In this document: positions 1-50,400 of the stretch, piece by piece
Position numbering within the stretch: position 1 is the first letter of the stretch
Layout of the letters: the number at the start of each line of letters is the position of its first letter
Assembly: GCF_018977255.1 (NCBI RefSeq)
Contig: NW_024704761.1
Coordinates: 2,294,001-2,358,000, forward strand
Length of the DNA stretch: 64,000 nt
Source: Callorhinchus milii
Taxonomy: Eukaryota
Reading direction: 5' to 3'
The notes under the pieces: generated by a model
The model's database searches: none
What the model saw: only the letters and a program-made list of their open reading frames with translations
What the model was told of the DNA's origin: nothing
Translations under genes and position numbers: made by a program

Positions 1-459
1 AAATTACACAATCCTCTTTGCACATAGAGAGTGTGGTGAGAATGTGGAACTCACTGCCGGAAATTGTGCAATACAAACTTACAGTGGGTCTTTTTAACAA
101 CAACAACTTGCACTTATATAGAACCCTTCACGCCGGACAGTGTCTCAGAGCGCTTAGATCCACAACCTTCTGACTCGGATGGGAGAGTGCTACCACTGAG
201 CCTCCGTGACAGCCTATCTGTGTCCACACAACAGTATTGCATTTTACCTTTTCAACCCGTGGATCCCATGGATGTCCCCCAGTTTGCGCCTCATAGACTC
301 GTCATCGTCCAGGTCCCTGACAATAAACCAAGCACATCAACCTCCTGAGCGTCAATATTCGATAAACTCGAGCTGAGAATTCACGACACGTCCCATATCA
401 CTTAATGTGATCGTAGTTCTATCCCTTAAACAAAAGGGGGTAAAAAAAATAATACTCAC

Positions 460-17279: not shown

Positions 17280-17435
17280 CGGCCTTACCTACCGGGGGAG
17301 CGGCCACCGACCGGTGTCTCCTCCTGACCAAGGGCGGCAAGATGGCGGAGCGGAAGCGGAAATGGCTCCGAACGTCCCGCCGGAAGTCGCTCGCGCACGC
17401 GCGCGCGCGCGTGAGTTTCCGCAAATGGCGGCGTG
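17280..17435. promoter_or_regulatory. Bidirectional CpG-island promoter shared by ATP5PD and KCTD2
   Basis: CpG-rich; YY1 (CAAGATGGCGG ~17338, AAATGGCGG ~17423), ETS/GABP (CGGAAG twice) and NRF1-like CGCGCACGCGCG between divergent genes. Confidence 0.8.
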
Positions 17436-20400
17436 ATGGCGGAGCTGGCGAGCTCCGGGACTCCCGGTGGTCACGGACACGGACACGGCTCCTCCCCCTC
17501 CCCCTCCCCCGGGCCCGGGCCCGGCGACAAACCCGCCAACAAGTGGGTGCGGCTCAATGTGGGCGGAACTTACTTCATCAGCACCAAACAGACCCTGTGC
17601 CGCGACCCCAAGTCCTTCCTGGGCCGACTGTGCCAGGAGGACCCGGACCTGGCCTCCGACAAGGTACCCCTCCCCCTACTGCCCCTCCCTCACCCCTCCC
17701 CCCACTGCCCCTCCCTCACCCCTCCCCCCCTCCCCTCCCTCACCCCTCCCCCCTGCCCCCACTCCCTCCCTCCCCTCCCACACCTCCCCACTCCCCTCCC
17801 TCACCCTCCCCCACTGCCCCCCCTCACCCCTCCCCTCACTCCCCCTCCCTCACCCTCCCCCACTCCGTCCCTCACCCTCCCCCCACTGCCCTCCCCCCTC
17901 CCCCACTGCCCCTCCCTCACCCTCCCCCACTCCCCCCCTCCCCCTCCCCCCACTGCCCCTCCCTCATCCCTCCACCCACTCCCCTCCCTCCCCCCACTGC
18001 CCTCCCCTCACTCCCCTCCCTCACCCCTCCCCCCACTGCCCCCCTCACCCCTCCCCCACTGCCCCTCCCTCACCCCCCCCTCCCCCACTGCCCCTCCCTC
18101 GCCCTCCCCCACTGCCCCTCCCTCACCCCTCCCCCACTCCCCTCCCTCACCCCTCCCCCCACTGCCCCTCCCTCGCCCCTCCCCCCTGCCCCTCCCTCAC
18201 CCCTCCCCCCACTCCCCTCCCTCACCCCTCCCCCCACTGCCCCTCCCTCGCCCCTCCCCCCTGCCCCTCCCTCACTCCTCCCCCCACTGCCCCTCCCTCA
18301 CTCCTCCCCCACTGCCCCTCCCTCACCCCTCCCCCACTCCCGTCCCTCACCCCTCCCCCACTGCCCCTCCCCCTCCCCCCACTTCCCCTCCCTCATCCCT
18401 CCACCCACTCCCCTCCCTCCCCCCTCCCCCACTGCCCCTCCCTCCCCCCTCCCCCCCACTGCCCCTCCCTCACCCCTCCCCCCACTGCCCTCCCTCCCCC
18501 CACTGCCCCTCCCTCACCCCTCCCCCCACTGCCCCTCCCTCACCCCTCCCCCCACTGCCCCTCCCTCACCCCCCCTCTCACTCCCCTCCCTCACCCCTCC
18601 CCCACTGCCCCTCCCTCACCCCTCCCCCACTGCCCCTCCCTCATCCCCCACCCACTCCCCTCCCTCCCCCCACTGCCCCTCCCTCCCCCCTCCCCCACTG
18701 CCCCTCCCTCACCCCTCCTCCCACTGCCCTTCCCTCCCTCTTTTTTTTCTCTTGTGGTTTATTCTGTTTTCATGTATTTTCAGGATGACACCGGTGCCTA
18801 TCTCATAGACCGAGACCCAACATATTTTGGGCCAATCCTAAACTACCTGCGACATGGGAAACTGATCATTAACAAGGACTTGGCTGAGGAGGGTGAGAGC
18901 TGAAACCTGCTCCAAGTGTTCAAATGTAACCCCAACACACATTGACATGGACTTGCATTAGAAAATTGACGTGCACTTGGATAAGAATGGTAACCCAGAC
19001 TGGTGAGAGCATTAACACGGACCTGTGATAGACTCAATCATTAACCCTGACACGGATTGGATGATTAGGCATGTTGTGGACTACAACATTAAGCTTGACA
19101 ATGACGCCCCCGCTTGATGGTTCAGCAAGCTTATCCTGATTCCCCCCCCTCCTCCCGCCAGCTCGGTTCCAAATCCCTGACTGTCCAGCGCCTTGGGACG
19201 TCCTGATGTGAAAGGCGCTATACAAATGCAATATGTTGTGAACATTTGTCTGAATATATCTGTCACTGGAATATTCTGAACAGTATGAACACATTTTTGA
19301 AACAGTGCCTGTCCTCCAGGCTTGCTGATGTCTCCTGCTTCTTGGTTTGTTTAGGATTGCCTGCCTACAATGTAAGAGAACTGGTTTCAGAGAGAGAAGT
19401 TCATCCCACAAGACTGTGTCAGGACTCTTAATGTTTGGCGTAGGAAATCATTCAGCTTAGTATTTAGCTGCTGCGGAGAACATCATGCAAGTTCCAAAGC
19501 TATACAGTGGTTTACCTGCATGAGTTGAATGTTTGATGGAGATGTGGTAGAAATTATTTCAGGATTTGGATTTATCCAGAAACTTGAGAAAAGGAGACAA
19601 CAAACAACTTCCTTCTTGAGAGGAAGCATTCCGTGAAATACTCTGAGACGTTAGCTCACATGAAGGACACTATAATAAATGCAAATGTTGTTGAAAGGCT
19701 TACAGGGTAACTTGACACAACCAGTCATTGCCACCATTTGCTTTAATTGCTAGAACATTGGAGCGAAAGATGGAGAAGGTGTCGTATTTCCAACTAAATT
19801 GGATTCAAGGTTACAGTTCATGGGCTGAAAATCAGAGGTTGCCAGGAGTTTGCATCCAGAAGGTTCAGACAAATATTTAAGATTATGTACTGATGTTTCT
19901 GTTTTCCCAGGAGTACTAGAGGAGGCAGAGTTCTACAACATCGTCTCACTCGTTCGATTAGTCAAGGAACGAATCCGAGACCTTGAGAACAGAACCTCAC
20001 AGGTAATTTGCTCTTGTATTCCAATGCCTCCGGTTTCATTATGAGGGCTTCAGGAAGCACTAGGTTGAACGTCTTTGTAATTATTAGTGCACTAGCATTT
20101 GCCTTCAAAATACAAAGTCATGACTTTACAGTAAATCATGTGAAGTACTTTAAGACTTCATCCCGATGCCAGCATTTTTATTATTGTAGTGATGTCACTG
20201 CAATGATGGAAGGCAGGATTGTACAAGCACGTTTGTATTTGATTCTGTATTGCTATGATTACCATTAGTCTCTGACTGAGGGCGTTTCCGCTTGTTTTAT
20301 TCAATGATAAGATTTTTTTAGTGTGTTAAAAGTGTAAATGTTTACTCCGCAGGGTCCAGTCAAACATGTTTACCGTGTGCTGCAGTGCCAGGAAGAGGAG

Positions 20401-23117: not shown

Positions 23118-23190
23118 GACCGCGTGGCCTAATGGATAAGGCGTCCGACTTCGGATCGGAAGATTGAGGGTTCGAGTCCCTTCGTGGTCG
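23118..23190 (+). tRNA. tRNA-Arg(TCG), intronless, 73 nt
   Basis: GACCGCG/CGTGGTC acceptor stem, A box TGGCCTAATGG, anticodon arm TCCGA-CTTCGGA-TCGGA, B box GGTTCGAGTCC, oligo-T terminator ~23207-23214. Confidence 0.97.
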
Positions 23191-23584
23191 CAGCGTTGTG
23201 TGTGTATTTTTTTTCTTGTTCTCTGCTGCCCCCCACACACACACACACACACAGAGAGAGAGAGAATATTTTTTAAAAAAAGACAAGTATATCGTTTCAG
23301 TATTTTTATTACTAATTGTCAAGCGCAGCGTATTTTACTGACGGTTCGGGAACCCGCACCGGGACCTCGATTCTGCTCCTCTTCTTCCCGACGTCCCGCC
23401 TCCAGGCGACATGGCCGGCGCCGCCCGGTCGGGCTCTCGGCACCGCCGCGTTTCCGCTCATCCGTCGCGAGAATAACCCTTTGCGTTTGACGCAGCGCCG
23501 CGTCACGGCTTCCGGGACGGCTCGAAGCCCTTCGCCGGGTACGCTGTAAAGTGTGTATACTGCACGGCTGTTTGCGGGGCATTG

Positions 23585-23850
23585 AATTCCCGGCAGAGGG
23601 CGAGACCTCGGGCAAGTTTCCTTACTCCGCACAGAGCCTAATAACAATCCCTCCAAAACCAAAACAATAATAAATTGGTCATTTTCAATCCACGACTGTT
23701 TGTGGGACATTGCTGTGCGCAATTGGCTGCCGCGTTCGCCCACAAATATACAGTCAATTCACTTTACAGTGTGTTCTGTGAAGCGCTTTGGGACGTCCTC
23801 CCGACGTGAAAAGCGCTATATCAAATGCAAGGATTATTATTATTATTATT
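23585..23850 (+). mobile_element. Deu-domain SINE, internally deleted subfamily
   Basis: Deu core TGTGGGACATTGCTGTGCGCAATTGGCTGCC, L2-like tail GTGAAAAGCGCTATATCAAATGCAAG and (ATT)n. Confidence 0.8.
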
Positions 23851-25328: not shown

Positions 25329-27438
25329 TCAGTCCAGATCCACCCGTCGGTCCCGCTTGACAGACGAGTGTATTTTCTTCTGCCTGAGTCGCTCCCTTTG
25401 CATGTTCTCCACCCTGGAATCACCAGAATCTCAATCAGTATCATTAATGATTATTAATAAAGTGTGTAGTGTAGTGGAGTCCCGCGTTTGGTATCCATAA
25501 ACCGTGAATAGGTTTGCCTGAACCCGTGTAGGCGGCCGACCCCTTTCGCTGGTTCCCACATAAAGAAAGTCGGGTCAACGCCAACAACACTCTCTGTTTT
25601 TGCTGCCCCATCCCCCAAAGTTTAAAATCTTTCCTCACTTTTAAAGCCCTCAACGGGCTTTCTCCTCATTTCTAAAACCTTATCAACCCGACTTTTCCCT
25701 CTGCTCAGCAGGAACTGACCTACTTCACGTCCCCCGCCTCGCCTGTCCCACTATCGGTGATTGTGCTTTTTGCCCCAGCATCACCTCATTCGCCGCAGCT
25801 CTGCGTCCTCTTTGGAAGGTTGGGTGGGTTTCCGGCTGGCCTCCGCAACTATATCCCTGATCTTCTGCAGACAATCAGCGAGGTTCCTCATCTGGTACCT
25901 GCTGACCTCTGAGCTCACCCTCAGCTCCCCCGACCGGTTGATTCTGTTTTTTTGCTAAAGAAAGGAAATGGTTGTAAAGACAAAGATGCTTATATTTCAT
26001 GGCAAACTTGAATCATAGAATCCTACAGCACAGAAGGAGGCCATTCGGCCCATCGTGCTGTAGGAGCTACCAACTAGTCCCACTCCCTTGCTCTTACCCC
26101 CGTAACCCTGCAATTTTTTTTTAATTGTCAAGTAAATATTCAATTCCTTTTGAAAGTTATTATTAAATTTGCTTCCACCACTGTTTTGCACATTGTAAAA
26201 TCTTGTGTTTGGGATCCATAAAGTAACAGGGCTGACTCTTCACTCACAAGAAGTTGGTTGTTTATTTCTGTGCTGGGAGCTAAAATGGCCAAACTTTAGG
26301 TCAGGAGGCCGTTGCCTGCAGTACGTAGCAAAAGTGATGTTTGCGACGATATAATAACTTTTAGTGTGAAAAGCCGGTGATCAGCCCAGGTCAGCTGTGC
26401 CACGTCAGTGAATGGGATCCACAGTGTAAATGTAGCATTGACCAATCTCCCCAGGATCCTTTTCACTGGACATCAAACTTCTGTTGTTGCAATACCTTAC
26501 CTGGGAAATAATACTCTGCCGGACATCCTCAGGGATCCAGTCTGCAGTCGCTACATGAAACCTGACCATGGCCTTTGAGTTTACTGTTTAAGAAATAAAA
26601 CAAATTTCAGCCTGGCAGGAAAACCAGAAAAGCATTACGCTGTAAAATTGCAGAAACATTTGCCAAAAATTGCAGGGAAATTTGACAAATTTTACATTAT
26701 ATTGTGGGGAGTTGATTGGTGTTATTGAGTAGACAGTTGGCAGTAATGTGCGGAGCCCTGGGGTCGAGCAAACTGTACTTTTACAGCTTTTTAACAGAGG
26801 GTGTCTGTTTTAACAGATTCCACGGAAAAATTACGGCCACACTTTTCTCTTGGCCCAGATGATAACCCAGCCCGTACTGAACATTCTGAATGCAGCAGGC
26901 AGTTTGCAAACAGCAATGCCGCCCATCAACAACAACAACTTGGATTTATATAGCACCATCACGCCAGACGGCGTCTCACACAGCCATGAGCTCCCTACTT
27001 CGCACAGTGTAAACATTTTATCTGGCTCAGGGAGCAGGGAGGACAATTTGCGGAACATGGCTCAGTGGCAGGGGCGAGGCTGGACGTACAGAAGACACGA
27101 ATGAACAATTGTATTACCTTTGTTTACATTCTGACCACCTGGACCACTGCTTCTGCAGTATGTTACTGTCAGGCGATCTACAAAAGAAAGCACATGGTAA
27201 GGGAAGTCTTATCATCAGCCTCGCTGCACACATATCCCCTCAATGTAAAGCTGTGCACACACTGAGGCTGTCCAGAGGAACGCACAGGGGGCTTCATCCC
27301 ATTTATGTTAAGGCTAGTTTAGATACTGAATAACTTCCTTGTTTAAAGATCTATCTCTGCACAAATGATTGCGGGAGGGGGGGGGCCATACATACCGACA
27401 GGAACGTCTGTGCCTCGATCATTCTTTTGAGATTCTGT
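25329..27438 (-). CDS. MRPL58: Mitochondrial peptidyl-tRNA hydrolase ICT1/mL62, exons 2-6
   Basis: Exons 27438-27396, 27177-27118 ([22 protein letters not shown] motif), 26583-26501 ([18 protein letters not shown]), 25954-25785 ([26 protein letters not shown]), 25413-25329 (..[22 protein letters not shown]). Confidence 0.95.
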
Positions 27439-27913
27439 CTGTGAATTTGAAAGAGATGCCATGTTAACTAGGAACGGTTCTGAACACCCACACTAAACTC
27501 TGTATCCCGATCCCACCAGTCCTTGCCAGGCTCCACTGGCTCCCTTTCACCGAACGGATCAATTTCAAGAGCCTCACTCCCCGACCCCACTATCCGTTGC
27601 CTCCACTTGACCTGCTCTGGGACGCTATTCTGTGTTAGGGGCGCTATATAAATGCAAGGTCGTTGTTCAGGTGGATGTTAAAGATCCCACTGCGCTATTC
27701 AAAATGAGTTTCTCTCTCCTGGTATCCCGGCCAGTATTCAATCCCCCAGATAAAACTGGGTCACTAATTTAGTTGCTATTTGTGGGTTCACAAATTCCAG
27801 GCAGAGGGCGAAACCTTGGGAAAGTTTCCTTACTCCACACAGAGCCTAATAATAATCCCTCCAAAACAAAACAACAATAAATTGGTCATTTTCAATCTAC
27901 GACTGTTTGTGGG

Positions 27914-27938
27914 NNNNNNNNNNNNNNNNNNNNNNNNN
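27914..27938. other. Assembly gap (25 N)
   Basis: Run of exactly 25 N, which looks like a placeholder size. Confidence 0.99.
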
Positions 27939-28606
27939 AGCTCCCCTCTCGACTCTCTACCCCCTCCTCGCTCCCTCCCTTCCCTCCCCTCACCCTGACC
28001 ATCTCCCCCCCTGCTCGGGTCCTGACCCAACTGTCCAGCGCCTTGGGACGTCCTCCCGACGTGAAAGGCGCTCTATAAATGCAATCTTGTTGTTGCCGTC
28101 AACACTTCACCATTGCCTTGGGACGTCATCCTGACGTGACAGGAGCTACACAAATGTAATTTTGTATTGTACTTCATCCGCTCGCCTCCCCTTCGTGAAT
28201 GAGGTCTTTTGAGTGCGAGTGTGGGGAAAGTGTCCCGCCATCATCTGATCATGGTCCACTCCACCAGGTGTCACTAGAGGGTGAGACTTGTTTCTCTTCT
28301 GTAGCCTCAGGAAGGCGTTCCCTACCATTTCCCCTTTCGTGAGATCAGTTCCTTTAGCAACAGTGCCACAGGTACTCTCACCACCGAGCCAGGAGGATGT
28401 GGGTTCAAGCCCCACATGGGGGGGGGGGGGGAGTTGAGTTAGAACCCTGTACAGTGTATGCTGACTGTGCAGTGGGCGCCATGTTGGTAAGGACCCAGGG
28501 GGAGGGGGGGCGCCATATTGGTGAGGGCCGGGGAGTGGGAGTCGCCATGTTGGTGAGGGCGGTGGCGGGTCGCCATGTTGGTGAGGGCCGGGCCGGGCCG
28601 GGCGTC

Positions 28607-28750
28607 ATGTTGCGGAGCGCGGCCCGGTGGTTGAGCGCCGGGGCTCGGGGCCTCGGGCTGACGGCCGGGCGTTCGCACGGCGGGTACCGCAGCGTGTACA
28701 GCCTGGACCGCCTGTACCCGAAGAGTGGGGGGGAGAGCGCATTTCGAGAG
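28607..28750 (+). CDS. MRPL58: MRPL58 exon 1 (mitochondrial presequence), inverted relative to exons 2-6
   Basis: MLRSAARWLSAGARGLGLTAGRSHGGYRSVYSLDRLYPKSGGESAFRE|GTGCGC; YRSVYSLDRLYP resembles the ICT1 motif FKSIYSLDKLYP; phase-0 donor fits the phase-0 acceptor at 27438; CpG island. Confidence 0.88.
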
Positions 28751-29576
28751 GTGCGCGACCGGAGCCCGGGCCTTGCGTCACCTTCTCCGGCAGCCGCGGA
28801 GGCTCGGTTTTGGGGCCGACACTTGAGCGCCGGGAGTCGGGCACAGGCCGCGGGGCAGCGTGACTGACACTCGCGTTGCCCCCCCCCCGACCCCCTCCTC
28901 CACAAGATCCTGGGGTTCTCGGACAACGACAACAGCTTGTATTTATATAGCGCCCCCTCAGGCAGGGCAGGGCAGGGAAGCGCCCCAGAGCGCCTCTAAC
29001 ACCTGGGTGGGCTCTGGCCAACTCGAACCCCCAGTCCTCTCCCTCTATTCCAGGTGATGGACATCCAACCATCACGGTCGTTCGGTCAGAAGCCGCTCAG
29101 GATCGGCCCGAGATGAACGTCCGGTGCCGACCCGGTCCGGTCCGGAGACGCTTAATAATAATCACCGTCGTAATAGTCTTATGGTGAAGCGCCCTGGGGC
29201 GCTCCGCTGGGCGAGGGGCGCCACGTCCACGCGAGTTGTTGCCGGCTTCCCGTTCGGTACCGCGCCTTATCACGTCGTCGAGGCGCCTCAAAGGCGCTTC
29301 GCAAGGTGTGCGAGCAAAGTGATGTGTTTGCATCACTCCGGGACCCCCACCCCGTGCGAAGGGCACGATCTCAACGCAAGTTGCTGTTGCTGCTGAGCGT
29401 ACTGTACTTCTGGCGGCCAATTTGCATACAGCAATAATAATAATAATAATCCTTGCATTTGATATAGCGCTTTTCACGTCGGGAGGACGTCCCAAAGCGC
29501 TTCACAGAACACACTGTAAAGTGAATTGACTGTATATTTGTGGGCGAACGCGGCAGCCAATTGCGCACAGCAATGT

Positions 29577-29915
29577 GGGCAGGACTGGCAGGACTGGTAG
29601 GCGAGGGCAGGCAGCGCAGGGAGGGAGGGGAGGGGCTGCAGGGGAGGGAGGGCAGGGCTGGCAGAGGGAGGTCAGGGCAGGCAGGGAGGGAGGGCAGGGC
29701 AGGGCTGGCAGGGGAGGGGAGGGCAGGGCTGGCAGGGGAGGGGAGGGCAGGGCTGGCAGGGGAGGGGAGGGCTGGCAGGGGAGGGGAGGGCAGGGCTGGC
29801 AGGGAGAGGGAGGGCTGCAGGGAGGGAGGGCTGGCAGGGAGGGGAGGGCAGGGAGGCGGAAGGCGCAGGAGGGCTGGCAGGGGAGGGGAGGGCGAGCAGG
29901 ACAGGACAGGGCGGA
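29577..29915. repeat. Purine-rich tandem repeat (GGGCAGGGCTGGCAGGGGAGGGGA)n
   Basis: Seen directly; begins exactly at the inferred right inversion breakpoint. Confidence 0.85.
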
Positions 29916-30134: not shown

Positions 30135-30680
30135 TCAACAACAACAACAACATTGCATTTATAGAGCGCCTTTCACATCGGGAGGACGTCCCAAGGCACT
30201 GGACAGTTGGGTCGGGACCCGAGCCTTGGGGGGAGATGGTCAGGGGGAGGGGAGGGAAGGGAGGGGGCAGGGAGGGGGGAGATGGTCAGGGTGAGGGGAG
30301 GGAAGGGAGGGAGCGAGGAGGGGGGGTGGTCAGGGTGAGGGAGGGAAGGGAGGGAGCGAGGAGGGGGGAGATGGTCAGGGTGAGGGGAGCGAAGGGAGGG
30401 AGCGAGGAGATGGTCAGGGTGAGGGGAGGGAAGGGAGGGAGCGAGGAGGGGGTAGAGAGTCGAGAGTGGAGCTGAAGGCTGAAGGTCAAAGAGAAAGGTC
30501 TTGAGACCGGCCTTGAAGGAGGAAAGGGAGGAAGCGGCGAAGGCACTGGGGATGGACATCCAGAGCCTCGGGGCTGAGAGGCTGAAGGCCACCGATAGTA
30601 GGGCGGTTGGGGCGGGGGATGTGGAGCAGACCGGAGCCAGAGGAACGGAGGGTACGGGCAGGTAAGTTGGGGGAATCAAA
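30135..30680 (-). mobile_element. L2-clade LINE 3' fragment with an expanded internal tandem repeat
   Basis: Encodes FSLSAPRLW..SFKAGLKTFLF (L2 ORF2 C-terminus), then 3' UTR and (TTG)n tail; near-identical inverted partner at 27939-28095. Confidence 0.8.
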
Positions 30681-31447
30681 CACCTTCGGGGTATGTACTG
30701 CAGAGTCCGGCGACTGCATGTGTTGCGGGCGAAACCGTCCCCGCGCACGGCCGCGGATCGAGTGACCGGATTATTATTTTGGGTTTATGTTTTTTTTTGA
30801 AGGGGCTTTGTTACCGCCCGGAAAAGCGATCCGTCGATCAATCAACAACCGGCTCCTGCTTACTGTTAGGTAAATGGAGGCGGGCGGAAGGGAAAACTGG
30901 CCTAAGGTTACGCCCTTCCCCGGGGGAATCGAACCCGGGTCCTCTCGCTTCCTAACCACTAACGCTCAGGACACTTAGTGACTGACTAAGTCTCTCAGTG
31001 ACTCAGTCTCTCAGTGACTGTAAGCCGCTCCACACTCAATTTCTGGTTCGCACAAATATTGCCTGAGAGAATAATCCTCGCATTTAATGCAGCGCCTTAT
31101 CGGGTCTCCGAGACGTCTCAAAGCGCATCACAGGACACACTGTAAAGTGGAGTGACTGCCTGTTTTGTTCGCCGTACGGGTGAAAGGTGACAAAAAGGTA
31201 TTACCAGCGAATTCCGAGCTTTGACTGTGTGTGTCCAGAGTGACGTCGGTCACTGGTGCCCAGTGTTCGGGGGGAACGAGTCACAGCTGTTGTTTGGAGG
31301 GAGACTACCGGGGACCAATCCCTGTAGTGGATGCTTCTCTCACAGATAAATCCCAGGCACAAAAGATGCTGTTCTGAAGCAGGATTTAGACACCATTCTG
31401 TGGGGATTGGCCTTAGAGCTGCCTTGGGCTGGCAGCCCGCAGTGGAG

Positions 31448-34400
31448 ATGGCTGCCGCCAGGGTCAGGGACCAGTCTAGATGCTTCCTATGCGGAACCGC
31501 AATGGAAATCCGGTCCGTGATTACGTCAACGCTGGGAGAGGACAGCGAGCTGTGTCCTGACTGTGGTCTGCCCCTCCTGTGTGCAGTCACGGCGGAGGTG
31601 GAGCGACCAGAACGCTCAGGCGTCCAGCCCGGGGCGAGTGTGTCCCAGAGTTCTGCCATGTGTCCCGTTAACAGCCACTGGGATGTGGCCGGTGATGAGA
31701 AGCCCTGGAGGACAACTGGCTGGCCACGCACAAGGGAGGACGCCGATTGTTTGAGGAGCTTTGACAGGCAGCCTCGTCAGACGCCAGGTTTTCCTGCCGC
31801 TGACCTGGCCAGAGATGGCTTCTCCTCCGCGGGCTTCGGCGACGAAGCTCAGAGGTGCGGGTGTGGGGACGGTTTGAGGACCCGGAGACCAGGTGACCGG
31901 CTGACGTCAGAGCGTTGGAGGCTTTTCCCCGCCGGCGTGTCTGTCTCCCACAAGCAGAGAGCCGGGAGCATTCCCCCCCGCGGCCCCGACACCGTGGACG
32001 GGCAGCTGCTGAGCCAGCTGCAGAGGTTGGGCCTGGAGGAGCTGCCCGTCGACCGGGCCAACAACCCCGCCATGGGGACGGAGGAGGCCAGGCTGAGCAC
32101 CTTCCAGAACTGGCCAAACGTGGCAGCTGTTGAGCCCCGAACGTTGGCGAGAGCTGGTTTCTTTTACACAGGTACACCTTCCCATCGCGGCGTCCCACAC
32201 CGTACCCCCGCATTCCCCCAACTCTGACCCACGTCCCCAGCCATCTCCAGCGCAGTCGCTTACATTTGACGAAAAGCAGACACATTCATACATTCATTGC
32301 TCCATCTTCACATGTCCACTCCCTCCTACTCCAGCCCTCGCACCCCCCCCCCCCACTCCCCTTCTCCCTCGCCCCCCCCGCTCCCTCACTCCCCCTTTCC
32401 CTCACCCTCCACACTCCACCTCTCCCACGCCGGCCCCCCCCCACCCCACTCCCCCAGCCCCAAATGCCCCTCCCTCCTCTCCCCCACCATCACGGGAAAG
32501 CGCACATTTGCTGAGGTGCAGCTGTAGCCACCCCAGCACCCAGCAATCACACTGCGCTGCCCCTCACGGGGTCGGGGGTGGGGGGTGGGCTGAGCTGCCT
32601 CGCCATGTCTGGGATGCTGTCATTTGCTGAGTCCTGTGACACCCATGTTGTGGGAATCTCTGAGCTCGAGATAAACTCAGTGGAATCAGATGGAACCTAT
32701 GAAAAGCAAATGAGTGCTGCTCGTGAGCAGCGAACCTTCTGCCCTTTGTCTCTGTGAATTGCTGACAGGCAGCGGCTGGCGGAGCCTGAATAGAAAGTGT
32801 TTAGAGCAGAAAATGTGGGTTGGACACACAGCCACAATCAGCCCCGGCCTCAGATTCCCCACCACACGCACAGCTACCCCAACACAACAGCTTGCATTTA
32901 TATAGCGCTGTTTACACGGGGTAGGGTCTTGTAACTAAGAATTGATTCGGGAGTTTGTACATCTCTAACACAGGCCAGGGCAGTGTGTACTCCCCTTTCA
33001 GGCCTCTCGCTCTCTCTCTGCCTCAACATTGTATTATCAAACACAGGAGGCTGAGCAGGAGACATTGCTAAATCAACTGATTTAGATCCCAGACATTGTA
33101 CTGCGTGCAACGAGTCGCTGGGCGGTGAGGTTTGGCATCATCTGCCGGGAAAAACATAAATGTGACTGAAACCATCTCTGTGCACAGGACACCGGGACAA
33201 TGTCAAATGCTTCTACTGTGACGGTGGATTACGCAACTGGGAATCGGGGGACGATCCTTGGATGGAGCATGCAAAATGGTTCCCACGGTACTAACAGTAT
33301 TGCCTGCTCCCCCTCCCCAACCCCGCTTGCCCCCCCCCGCGCTTGTCCTGCTCCCCGCCTCTCCCCCCGCCCTGCCCTCTCCCCCCGCCCCACGCCCAAG
33401 TCCTAGCCCCTGACTGTTCAGCGCCTTGACGTGAAAGGCGCTTTACAAATGTAATGTATTGTATGTGTTGTCTTCCTGCTGTATCGCTCACTGGTGCCTT
33501 GGGTTTGCAGGTGTGACTACCTGCTGCAGGCGAGAGGCAGCGAGTATGTGTGCAGTGTGCAGCAGCTACACGCCGACATCCTGCAGTCAGTGGTGAGTGG
33601 AATGTTCTGGAATGTTGCCTGCTGTGTTCTGGCGGTTGCTGTGTTGCGGAGCTGACACGTGCCTTTGTACAGTTTCAGGGCCGCTTGCAGATCCAGTCGC
33701 AGAGACCTTCCACACAAGGTTTGCTCTCAATGTTCCGTTTTATGTCTACCAACACCCAGTGTTTACAACCGCCACATTCAGACCATCACGTCTCTGTTGC
33801 AGGAGTCAGTCTAATAGCACGCACGCACTCACTCACTCACTCACTCACTCTTTGCCCATCCTTCAACAGTCACCCCAACTGGGCTGTGATCTTAACGGCT
33901 CTAATGTGTGATGGTCTGGCGGGCCAGGCTGGGAGATACAAGCTATTTTCCAGAGAGACTCATGCATGATTGGAGAAGTTCCAGGTGGGGCATTGCCTCA
34001 CTTACATAAGAACATAAGAAATGCGAGACCAACAAAAGACCAAGGTCCACCGAGTTCACCATCGCTTACCAATAAGAATTAATTCCGGGGCTGGGGCTGT
34101 GCTCGGGCGTGGCCGTGCAGGGGCGGGGCTATTCTTGGGGGTGCGTGACCGTGCACACAGGGAGAATTGATCTTCCTGTGCTGTGAGCCAGTGCAGACTC
34201 GATGGGCTGAATGGCCTCTTTCCACACTATAAATTTCAGTTTCCCTGCTCCTCTCCAGACTGTGGAGTCGATACTTTATCCGTTCACTTCTTGCACAGAC
34301 GGTGAATGAGGACTTGGCCGAAGCACACCTCAAGGCACCAGGAAAGTGGGAGACGAACAGTGTCGGCAGATTGTTGTTTCGCTCACCTCTTTCTCGCTGG

Positions 34401-47400: not shown

Positions 47401-50400
47401 TATTATTATTGTTAACTGCTGTGATACATCCTCCCGATGGATGCAAAATGTAAATCGTGTTGAAAATTGTCTCCTAGCCTTTCCTTTTCCGCTAAGATTA
47501 TTTGGTGCTTTGATATAGATTGTCGGCCAACTTAATTTCTACTGTATTGAGAAACAGCATCTAACAAATATAAAAAGTGGCTATGGGATTAGGAGAGGGG
47601 CATTCTATTTGTTGAGCTTGCTCTGACTATTTATACTTGTTATATTTTGTATTTTTATACATTAGTCAACAATATACTGTATTACCTTTCATTTCTTTTT
47701 TTCCTCGAAGGGAGCACTTGTAGGCATGTTTGTCGGTTTAGCGCTTTCTTTGTGGTTAGGGATTGGGGCACAAATCTACCCACCTGTCACCAGATTTGCA
47801 AGGCAACTCAACATATCTTCAATAGGTTGCCTGCAGCCTAATGCCACCATCTCGACCCCAGTGAATGGATCATCCCTGGTCACAACCACGATAGCATCCG
47901 AAGCACAGGAAGGGATGTAAGTCATTCAGCAACGTAGGACTCACATCTTACATTCAATTCACATTTTTTTTTTAAAAAAAGAGTTTAAAAACGCAATAGA
48001 ATGCAGTGACCTTCTGCTGTTTAAAATATAGAACAGCAAACAAACTCAGTAATGTGAATATCCAATAGTTCATTCAAATTAATTACAATTGTATAGCGCC
48101 TTTCACGTCTGGAGGACATCCCAAGGCGTTGGATAGTCAGGGATTTGGCCACACAGGGCCTCAAAGGCGAGGACGAGGATTTTGAACTCTATCTTCTGGG
48201 GGATGGGGAGCCAGTGGAGCCGCGCGAATACAATAACATAGGATCACGGAACACGTGTGATGCAGAGCAGATCACACCTTATTCTAAAAGAAGATAAGAT
48301 AATTGAAGTCTTTGAAAATATGTCGCGCTGGCCTAAAACAGACCCAATCTGGATCGGAACTGCAAAACTCCGTCAGCAGTAATTGATCTTTTATTCAGCT
48401 GAATCCACATTTAATTGACTTAGAATTTTGACGCCTTTCCCGATTTTCGAAGGCTATTACTAGCAAAAATATAAACTCTGTTAATGGGCCAGATCAATCG
48501 TTGTATATACTTTTTTTTATTGCATTGACGAGTGACTTAACTTTCATCGAGATGAACAGTTAAGCTGCCTATTTGATAAATATATGCTAGGTTAGGAACA
48601 CAAGTTCACAGTGCATTAAGAAATTACTATAACTGTATGTTCTATCAAGAGGGTCCCATTTGTCCCCTGAAACTAGAATTGTGCTTTTTGAAAATATTGT
48701 TTTTTTTAGTTTCTTTGGTCAGGAGGATTTATTCTATTGAATGATACGATGCTGTTCCTTGTTTCTCCCACCAGAAGGCATGCTCGAGAAGGCTGGAATG
48801 GGAGCTTCGCCCACACATGTCTTGTTGCCCTGTTTTGTGGAACTTTTCTTTTATCAAAATATTATTATTAACTTGTCCTGATCCATGCCCCATCTTCAAA
48901 GGAATGTATCTAGCCAGGAATTCACAGGAAAACATTTTGTTTGTTTTGCCTACAAAATACACAGTCTGCACTTTACAGTGTATCCTGTGAAGCGCTTTGA
49001 GATGTCTCGAAGACGTGATATGGCGCTGTATCAAATGCAGGGATCATTATTATTGATTGATTGATCGATTGATTGTTTTCACCCGCAAAAAAATAAAGAT
49101 AATATTGTTTAGGCACAATGTGGCACTATTAATTGACTGGACCATACAGTTTGATGTAGTCCCAGAATAAAATTGTTTGTTTAATAGGGACACAAAACGA
49201 CTCAATCTGGAAACTTAACCTTAATTACTTTCTTTTGTATTTTAGATCCAGCATCATGAAAAATTTCTACTCCTTATCCTTTATGTACTATTGCCTAATT
49301 GGTTGCCTGTGTACAATTTTAGTAGGTTTAATGGTCAGCTTTTGTACGGGTAAGTAAAATGATATTACAAATAGTGACTAGAAAAATCCTATCACAAAAC
49401 TGAATCAATGAGGTTGAAAAAGCCCTTGAATAACATAACTACTGAAAAAAACTCGTCATCTGTAACAACTTCTATACAGGAATTATATCAAAGTCACACA
49501 GTTTAGTCTCGCAGAAGCAAAGAGAGGCAACTATTGAAGGTATACTTATGCCTTAGCATAATGCCACTAAGATGGGAATCTCAACAAAGCCAGTTTCATT
49601 TTTTATTTTAAAAAAAGACCTTGGGATATTTTATAAGAAATTAAAACATATGATGAAATCTTGAGAAAATAGCATATTTTCACATACGGATGTATTTTGG
49701 TCTATGTACTTTTGCCAGAGTGGCACAAAAGACCAACAGAGATTTAAATCGATGTAAATTATGAAATATGAATACTGCAATGCAAATTTTTAGGTCTCTT
49801 TCTGAATAAAGTTTACTTATATTTTAGTCATTGTGTTGCTAGGTACCCACAAAATGTCTTAGCAACATTTCCTCCAACTGTTTGACTTAAATTTTATATC
49901 TGCTATGGTTAGTTCACTTTCACTGCTAACTCTGAACTCAATATTATAGGAGGAGCTAAAGATGTGGATCCAACTCTCATTGCTCCGATAATAAAGAACT
50001 TTTCCATGGCCCTTTTGAGGGAAGAACAAACCCCTCCATTACCTGAATCAGTAAGATTATGTTTCACTTCAACTTAACATGTGGTCATCGTGTAGAGTCC
50101 CGTAACTTAATGGTTAGAGCGCTCGCCTCTCAAGCGAGAGGACCTGGGTTCGATTCCCGGGCAGGGCGAAATGTTGGGCAAGTTTCCTTACTCCACACAC
50201 CTCTGCTTACCTAGCAGTAAGTAGGAACCCGCTTGTTAGTTAATTGTCGGAACGGTTTTCCGCGGGGGTAATAATCCCTTAAAAAGATAAAGAAAAATAA
50301 TAATAATTTGGACACTCAATCCATGACTGCTGTGCGCAATTGGCTGGAGAGTATTACTAATATAACCACTTTGTATATAGAGATATACATACACAAATTT

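What the first reader, a model, noticed from the sequence alone, without database searches (positions are those of the whole stretch)
25329..29576. MRPL58/ICT1 is split across strands; a bisected SINE fixes the inversion breakpoints
Seen: exons 2-6 are on the minus strand (27438-25329), but the phase-compatible exon 1 and its CpG promoter are on the plus strand (28607-28750), pointing away from them. The SINE left of the gap stops at ...GACTGTTTGTGGG (27913). Its exact continuation ACATTGCTGTGCGCAATTGG... reads on the minus strand from 29576 to ~29432, as judged against the intact sister copy at 23585-23850. Flipping 27939-29576 restores both the SINE and the gene. Inference: most likely a mis-oriented contig at the 25-N gap, since ICT1 is essential in mammalian cells. 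The right junction has no Ns, so a real heterozygous inversion or trans-splicing is not excluded.
Basis: partly seen in the sequence, partly recalled or inferred. Interest (0 to 1): 0.7.

Follow-up and report, generated by a model that had tools for sequence, protein, structure and literature searches.

The report
Flipped MRPL58 exon is assembly error
In this elephant-shark sequence the first exon of the mitochondrial ribosome gene MRPL58 is printed backwards beside a sequencing gap, but it is most likely an ordinary gene with 1.6 kb written the wrong way round during assembly: a public transcript assembly joins that exon to the next one, and turning the piece round rejoins a cut repeat to the exact base.

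Summary
Exon 1 of MRPL58/ICT1 (28607-28750, +) faces away from exons 2-6 (27438-25329, -). Joined, they give a 194-aa protein identical to a public ICT1 record, and one probable-RNA contig makes the exon 1-2 joint at full depth. A young SINE is cut at 27913|29576 with no base lost. Refinement: the block to turn is probably 27914-29576, with the 25 N. That puts the gap between a cut L2 repeat and a G-rich minisatellite, and explains why the right junction has no N. A second 25-N gap 162 kb away shows a mirror-image fault, with exactly 2,000 flank bases copied inverted; 8 other gaps surveyed did not show it. No DNA contig bridges either junction, so a private inversion (about 4%) or trans-splicing (about 1%) is not formally excluded. 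Best reading: a gap-filling orientation error (about 94%). This scan earlier noted a flipped gene beside a gap in the same genome (SPRY1); I confirmed a 25-N gap there but not the same geometry.

The parts
25329..25413 (-). MRPL58/ICT1 exon 6 (coding part, to the stop codon)
   Evidence: joined to exon 5 in contigs of X5 and X7
25785..25954 (-). exon 5
   Evidence: weak RF-1 match below the curated cut-off
26501..26583 (-). exon 4
27118..27177 (-). exon 3, with the GGQ motif
   Evidence: RF-1 PF00472 E 1.1e-5, below the whole-protein cut-off
27396..27438 (-). exon 2
27664..27792 (+). older SINE-like host element into which the young SINE is inserted; its likely continuation lies on the minus strand just left of 29433
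   Evidence: three other copies compared by eye
27793..27913 (+). 5' half of the young SINE, cut at the gap
27914..27938 (.). 25 N; inferred to belong at the other end of the block, before 29577
   Evidence: placement inferred
27939..29576 (.). 1,638-bp piece printed in reverse (61% GC, CpG observed/expected 0.84)
27939..28095 (+). 3' end of an L2-like repeat (family name recalled), cut at the gap; its usual upstream part does not follow after the turn
28440..28606 (+). GC- and CpG-rich region upstream of exon 1 (promoter inferred), with a length-variable GGGCC run before the ATG
   Evidence: (table 4)
28607..28750 (+). exon 1 (48 codons, phase 0, GT donor), with the YSLDK-type motif YRSVYSLDRLYP
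29433..29576 (-). 3' half and tail of the young SINE
29577..29912 (.). G-rich minisatellite (76% GC) that starts exactly at the N-free junction; inferred true contig end
23585..23850 (+). intact sister SINE used as the ruler

Best explanation
MRPL58 is most likely an ordinary six-exon gene on the minus strand, and the printed split is likely an assembly error in which a 1,638-base extension and its 25 N (27914-29576) were written reverse-complemented. Inferred steps: a contig ended inside a very high-copy SINE at 27913; a gap-filling step extended it through the rest of the SINE, intron 1, the GC-rich exon 1 and promoter, and into an L2 repeat, without reaching the next contig, which begins in a G-rich minisatellite at 29577; the block 'extension + residual gap' was then pasted in backwards. 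The true order would be 27913, then 29576 down to 27939, then a gap, then 29577, with a 1,301-bp intron 1 spliced in cis. Shown: exon structure, SINE abutment, transcript joint, identical protein record, a related fault at a second gap. Inferred: that the DNA is co-linear in the animal, and which program step made the error.
For: (1) Contig 18 of run X5 (RNA by guess, 538 letters, depth 758.5) holds 28593-28748 on one strand and goes on at 27440 on the other, then exons 2-6; with 2 letters fitting either side this is the predicted GT-AG joint (1 of 2 probable-RNA runs laid). (2) The six exons translate to a protein identical at 194 of 194 residues to P0001, a predicted ICT1 record; human ICT1 chains match over residues 26-194, across the exon 1-2 boundary, E 1.4e-69. 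(3) The SINE halves abut exactly. 18 of the 19 closest relatives of the left half that I fetched go on with the right half at 118-136 of 136 identities; L007 matches 119/121 and 136/136. The restored 24-letter joint occurs 45 times in 1.864 Mb, the printed right joint once (itself), the two other possible joints never. (4) The turn also seems to rejoin an older host element around the SINE. (5) The N-free junction lies exactly at the start of a G-rich minisatellite, and the cut L2 copy is not continued there: sequence is missing there, not inside the SINE. (6) At C20:2159624 another 25-N gap has exactly 2,000 bases of its right flank copied inverted on the left (99.5%, 9 gap columns), followed by 2.37 kb that continues the repeat cut at the gap; its far junction has no N and lies at the end of a G-rich minisatellite. 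A round 2,000-base flank points to software. (7) Gap fillers extend one flank and leave a smaller gap; 25 or more N defines a gap in PBJelly (PMC3504050, passages). (8) P0002, seen on a contig of the same length as C20, begins with nine extra residues that need one GGGCC unit fewer than the window has, so its exon 1 was likely taken from a transcript, not from this DNA.
Against: No DNA contig among the pieces listed bridges 27913 to 29576; unique contigs stop at the SINE on both sides (27834/27840 and 29424), so co-linearity is not shown directly. In run X7 the contig runs from exon 2 into 101 bases of intron 1 and not to exon 1, which X7 does not cover. The fault is not general: the strict test was positive at 1 of 10 gaps (4 had a flank in a repeat), an inverted flank copy was seen at 1 of 10, and 8 of 10 showed neither. 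The second gap keeps a duplicated flank and this one does not. PBJelly's paper speaks of 1-kb flanks, not 2 kb, so the tool is not identified. The transcripts may come from other individuals than the assembled one.
Confidence: 0.94

Rival explanations
1. A real 1.6-kb inversion, private to or heterozygous in the sequenced animal, knocks out one allele; the transcripts come from the normal allele or from other animals.
For: The right junction has no N. No contig bridges the restored joint. Loss of ict1 is viable in zebrafish (PMC12319706, abstract). Inverted related L2 copies lie at 27939-28095 and 30142-30473.
Against: An assembly gap would have to fall exactly on one breakpoint. The L2 copies do not sit at the breakpoints that restore the SINE, and recombination between inverted copies leaves whole chimeric copies, not halves (established knowledge). 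After the turn the L2 copy is still cut. A software-like fault of the same geometry lies 162 kb away.
Confidence: 0.04
2. The arrangement is real and fixed, and the mRNA is made by trans-splicing of exon 1 (plus strand) to exons 2-6 (minus strand) from a bidirectional CpG promoter, as with the opposite-strand exons of Drosophila mod(mdg4).
For: The joint in X5 is, read literally, between opposite strands. X7 has a contig that runs from exon 2 into intron 1. As printed, the CpG region lies between the two parts and could fire both ways (sequence; inference).
Against: The joint lies in one contig of the same depth as the other four joints, as cis-splicing predicts (contig depth is a flat mean, so this is weak). 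Trans-splicing gives no reason for a SINE cut to the base at a gap. It is described as rare in vertebrates (PMC4824033, passages).
Confidence: 0.01
3. An assembly error of another kind: a separate small contig turned round by a scaffolder or by hand, with the right junction closed or trimmed later.
For: Same evidence for an error as in the best explanation; short-range orientation errors are a known class (10.1101/668921, start of abstract in the listing).
Against: Does not explain the base-exact abutment together with a single gap on the wrong side, nor the 2,000-base flank copy at the second gap. For the biology it makes no difference.
Confidence: 0.01

Closest known systems
Vertebrate MRPL58/ICT1 (mL62), RF-1 family peptidyl-tRNA hydrolase of the mitoribosome; records P0001 (XP_007886948.1) and P0002 (XP_007886949.2, UniRef V9LCL9); PDB 3j7y chain p
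   Same: 194 of 194 residues identical to P0001; GGQ motif in exon 3; YSLDK-type motif in exon 1 at 11 of 12 positions of the consensus in PMC12319706 section 19; E 1.4e-69 to the human chain
   Different: Nothing in the protein. Only the printed orientation of exon 1 differs.
Gap-filling by flank extension and 'overfilled' gaps (PBJelly, PMC3504050, passages read; DENTIST benchmark, PMC8848313, passages read)
   Same: One flank is extended and a residual gap is left; 25 N is the smallest gap that PBJelly counts; local errors at filled gaps are reported. That it writes residual gaps as 25 N is recalled, not from a call.
   Different: The passages seen do not describe an extension written in reverse with its gap, and name 1-kb flanks. 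Two searches listed no paper whose title or abstract start describes this fault; full texts were not read through.
Intragenic trans-splicing of Drosophila mod(mdg4) (PMC13490949, PMC12692577, search listing only; PMC4824033, passages)
   Same: Exons that cannot be joined in cis as printed appear in one mRNA.
   Different: There the layout is real DNA with independent promoters and many alternative exons; here the strand change lies at an N gap and cuts a repeat to the base.

Membership tests
MRPL58/ICT1 (mL62) | RF-1 domain with GGQ motif | tested here: met
   exon 3 matches PF00472 positions 12-29, E 1.1e-5, exon 5 positions 40-85, each below the whole-protein cut-off; P0001 carries PF00472
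MRPL58/ICT1 (mL62) | N-terminal YSLDK motif that binds the large subunit | tested here: met
   YRSVYSLDRLYP in exon 1 against F/Y-K-S-X-Y-S-L-D-K/R-L-Y-P (PMC12319706 section 19)
MRPL58/ICT1 (mL62) | full-length similarity to solved ICT1 chains | tested here: met
Assembly orientation error at a gap | strand change coincides with an N gap | tested here: met
Assembly orientation error at a gap | turning the block restores independent features | tested here: met
   gene, young SINE, probably the host element
Assembly orientation error at a gap | genomic reads support the turned order and not the printed one | tested here: inconclusive
   only short-read contigs are held; they break at the SINE and do not cover 29584-29615
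Assembly orientation error at a gap | same fault at other gaps of the assembly | tested here: inconclusive
   related fault at 1 of 9 other gaps in 1.864 Mb, with a duplicated flank; direct duplication at 1 more; SPRY1 gap shows a direct duplication, flip test blank
Real inversion by recombination between inverted repeats | homologous inverted repeats at both breakpoints | tested here: not met
   one break lies inside a single SINE, the other between an L2 copy and a minisatellite
mod(mdg4)-type trans-splicing | non-co-linear exons shown to be real in genomic DNA | tested here: inconclusive
   no contig bridges either junction
mod(mdg4)-type trans-splicing | separate promoter and precursor for the acceptor exons | not testable with these tools
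   contigs cannot show starts or strands; no raw reads were listed

The most novel reading that the evidence does not exclude
The layout is real and a vertebrate housekeeping gene makes all its mRNA by trans-splicing between opposite strands from one bidirectional CpG promoter, after an inversion that cut a young SINE.
Probability: 0.01. Interest if true: 0.9.

Novelty: not a real feature. Interest (0 to 1): 0.08.

Why it matters
As biology it does not: the gene and its protein look normal. As a caution it does. In this assembly small inversions and inverted duplications that touch a 25-N gap may be software products even when their far junction has no N, so an N-free junction is no argument for a real rearrangement here. 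GC-rich first exons and promoters are likely victims, which can spoil gene models and promoter studies in a species much used for early-vertebrate comparisons. If the rival were true, it would be a constitutive opposite-strand trans-splicing case in a vertebrate.

Tried and rejected
1. Direct test of the printed right junction: four DNA-like runs of one study (X1-X4) laid on 29548-29660 at 90% likeness. No contig goes more than 6 bases past 29576, but 29584-29615 has no cover in any run, so this is no evidence either way. 2. No listed holder is on record as RNA; X5 and X7 are RNA by guess, though their contigs skip all introns. No raw or long reads were listed. 3. I suspected that the halves come from different SINE copies, because the left is 92.6% and the right 100% like the sister. 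Rejected: other copies match both halves at 98-100%. 4. I considered recombination between the inverted L2 copies at 27939 and 30473. Rejected: it would not rejoin the SINE, and the family is very abundant (depth). 5. A loose flip test was positive at 2 of 10 gaps but also at 63 of 150 controls, so it was dropped for the strict test (1 of 10; 25 of 600 controls). The second gap fails the strict test, probably because its flank is duplicated, and rests on the alignment. 6. No alternative exon 1 is evident on the minus strand between exon 2 and the gap (three-frame translation read by eye); on the plus strand exon 1 unspliced stops after 86 codons. 7. A search of G000 with 28560-29400 scored 40 of 209 candidates and found no second copy, only repeat fragments. 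8. SPRY1 lead: 25-N gap at C1:842924-842948 with a 3.3-kb direct duplication (98.2%); flip test blank; same geometry not shown. 9. A word search of earlier findings for this fault returned nothing. Supplements of the papers were not opened; they could hold descriptions of gap-filler faults.

Full report
What is there. The window lies at G000:C20:2294001-2358000. Protein records that match it are labelled Callorhinchus milii. It holds one run of 25 N at 27914-27938 and one single N. Exons 2-6 of MRPL58/ICT1 lie on the minus strand from 27438 to 25329 and exon 1 on the plus strand at 28607-28750. All five introns are GT-AG, the phases fit, and the joined frame is 194 codons. The translation is identical at 194 of 194 residues to P0001, a predicted ICT1 record, which was the only hit among 56 candidates for exon 1. 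It matches solved human ICT1 chains over residues 26-194 (E 1.4e-69). Exon 1 carries YRSVYSLDRLYP, 11 of 12 positions of the ribosome-binding consensus in PMC12319706 (section 19 read). So this is the true exon 1. A search of G000 with 28560-29400 found no second copy (40 of 209 candidates scored).

The cut SINE. 27793-27913 aligns to the sister copy at 23585-23706 and 29576-29433 (minus) to 23707-23850, with no overlap and no loss. The halves differ in identity to the sister (92.6% and 100%), which raised the doubt that they are parts of different copies. I fetched 19 of the 39 other matches listed for the left half: 18 of 19 go on with the right half at 118-136 of 136 identities, and L007 matches 119/121 and 136/136. 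The halves fit one young element. In 1.864 Mb of G000 the restored 24-letter joint occurs 45 times, the printed right joint only at its own place. A strict test for 'repeat cut here and resumed on the other strand within 15 kb' is positive at this gap, at exactly 1,638 bases, and at 25 of 600 control positions. The young SINE sits in an older related element, whose expected continuation seems to follow the SINE's tail on the minus strand (three copies compared by eye).

Transcripts. Twenty runs of 7 studies hold part of the stretch, all as contigs; none is on record as RNA. I laid two DNA-like and two RNA-like runs. In X5 one contig of 538 letters, depth 758.5, holds 28593-28748 and then changes strand at 27440, with two letters fitting either side, and goes on through exons 2-6. 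This is the predicted exon 1-2 splice joint. In X7 the contig joins exons 2-6 but runs on from exon 2 into 101 bases of intron 1; X7 has no cover on exon 1. A second record, P0002, has nine more N-terminal residues; in the window the matching ATG at 28575 is out of frame and would be in frame with one GGGCC unit fewer, while X1 and X2 have one unit more. Its exon 1 therefore likely comes from a transcript of another allele (inference).

Genomic junctions. The DNA contigs cannot settle the order. Unique pieces stop at the SINE on both sides (27834 and 27840; 29424), and loose ends at 27913, 27939 and 29576 come from the repeat families at large (most rows were not shown). On 29548-29660 no contig of X1-X4 passes 29582, but 29584-29615 is uncovered in all four, so the printed junction is neither supported nor refuted.

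Which block to turn. That leaves 25 N inside a SINE that lacks nothing, and butts the L2-like copy cut at 27939 against a G-rich minisatellite that starts exactly at 29577. The L2 copy's usual upstream part, seen in the copy at 30474 onward, does not follow there; that joint occurs nowhere in the survey. If the N are turned with the piece (27914-29576), the SINE is whole, intron 1 is 1,301 bases, and the gap lies between a cut repeat and a 76%-GC minisatellite, where sequence is missing and where contigs tend to end.

A second case. I fetched 1.8 Mb more of G000: 10 gaps in 1.864 Mb with the window, all of 25 N. At C20:2159624, 162 kb away, exactly 2,000 bases of the right flank recur inverted to the left of the gap (99.5%, 9 gap columns), followed by 2.37 kb that continues the repeat cut at the gap's right edge. 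The far junction has no N and lies at the end of a G-rich minisatellite. This is the mirror image of the MRPL58 case, except that the flank was not trimmed. At C29:2076502 about 2,025 bases of flank are duplicated in direct orientation. The other seven gaps showed nothing; only 4 of the 10 had a flank in a repeat, so most could not be tested. I found a 25-N gap 4.6 kb from the Sprouty domain with a 3.3-kb direct duplication, but could not show the same geometry.

Mechanism. Gap fillers extend a flank with long reads and, where they cannot close the gap, keep the extension and shrink the gap; PBJelly counts 25 or more N as a gap and uses reference flanks as seeds (PMC3504050, passages). An extension trimmed at the contig end abuts it to the base. 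If 'extension + gap' is written in reverse, the N fall next to the contig that was extended and the start of the extension is glued without N to the other contig. That is the pattern seen. The step is inferred; I have no record of how this assembly was made, the paper names 1-kb flanks, and the listings of two searches showed no title or abstract start that describes this fault.

Rivals. A private or heterozygous inversion remains possible (about 4%), because no read bridges a junction and ict1 loss is viable in zebrafish (PMC12319706, abstract). It needs an assembly gap exactly on a breakpoint and lacks repeats at both ends. Constitutive trans-splicing (about 1%) fits the literal joint, but does not explain the cut SINE and is described as rare in vertebrates (PMC4824033, passages; mod(mdg4) papers seen in the listing only).

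Verdict. Observation confirmed; first reading supported and refined. Not a real feature, with about 95% for an assembly error of some kind. Interest 0.08, as a caution for this assembly.

Noticed in passing
G000:C20:2155255-2161648 (L031): 25-N gap at 2159624-2159648 with exactly 2,000 bases of the right flank copied inverted on the left, then 2.37 kb that appears to be a reversed extension; far junction without N at the end of a G-rich minisatellite.
   Followed up: yes
G000:C29:2070101-2079400 (L112): 25-N gap at 2076502 with 2,025 bases of the left flank repeated directly on the right (97.7%) and a further 596-base direct copy: likely false duplication.
   Followed up: partly
G000:C1:836934-848500 (L211, L212): SPRY1 (name from recalled N-terminus and PF05210) lies beside a 25-N gap at 842924-842948 with a 3.3-kb direct duplication across it (98.2%).
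   Followed up: partly
G000:C30:3222077 (L167): A LINE-like repeat appears to run straight across this 25-N gap in the same orientation with little or nothing missing (read by eye, family consensus recalled).
   Followed up: no
window 28575-28606: GGGCC run between an upstream ATG (28575) and the main ATG varies in length: one unit more in X1 and X2, one unit fewer implied by P0002. It shifts the frame of the upstream ATG; in-frame ATGs also lie at 28481 and 28547, the first behind no tested stop check.
   Followed up: partly
window 23118-23191 (+) and 50097-50168 (+): tRNA-Arg(TCG) and tRNA-Glu(CTC) called by ARAGORN; a tRNA-Arg gene near ICT1 and KCTD2 is recalled from the human locus.
   Followed up: no
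window 31328-32224 (+): Open frame with BIR domain matches (PF00653, E 5.5e-12): an inhibitor-of-apoptosis gene that would lie head to head with MRPL58 after the turn.
   Followed up: no
window 17415-17560 (+): Exon that reads like the start of a KCTD2/5/17 BTB domain (name recalled; the Pfam scan did not hit it, probably wrong frame).
   Followed up: no
G000:C225:2127-53847: At least 18 copies of the SINE's 5' half at 94% identity, many about 1.17 kb apart: a tandem array that carries the element.
   Followed up: no
1.864 Mb survey of C20, C28, C29, C30: 18 single N, several at the end of A or T runs: likely one-base placeholders.
   Followed up: no
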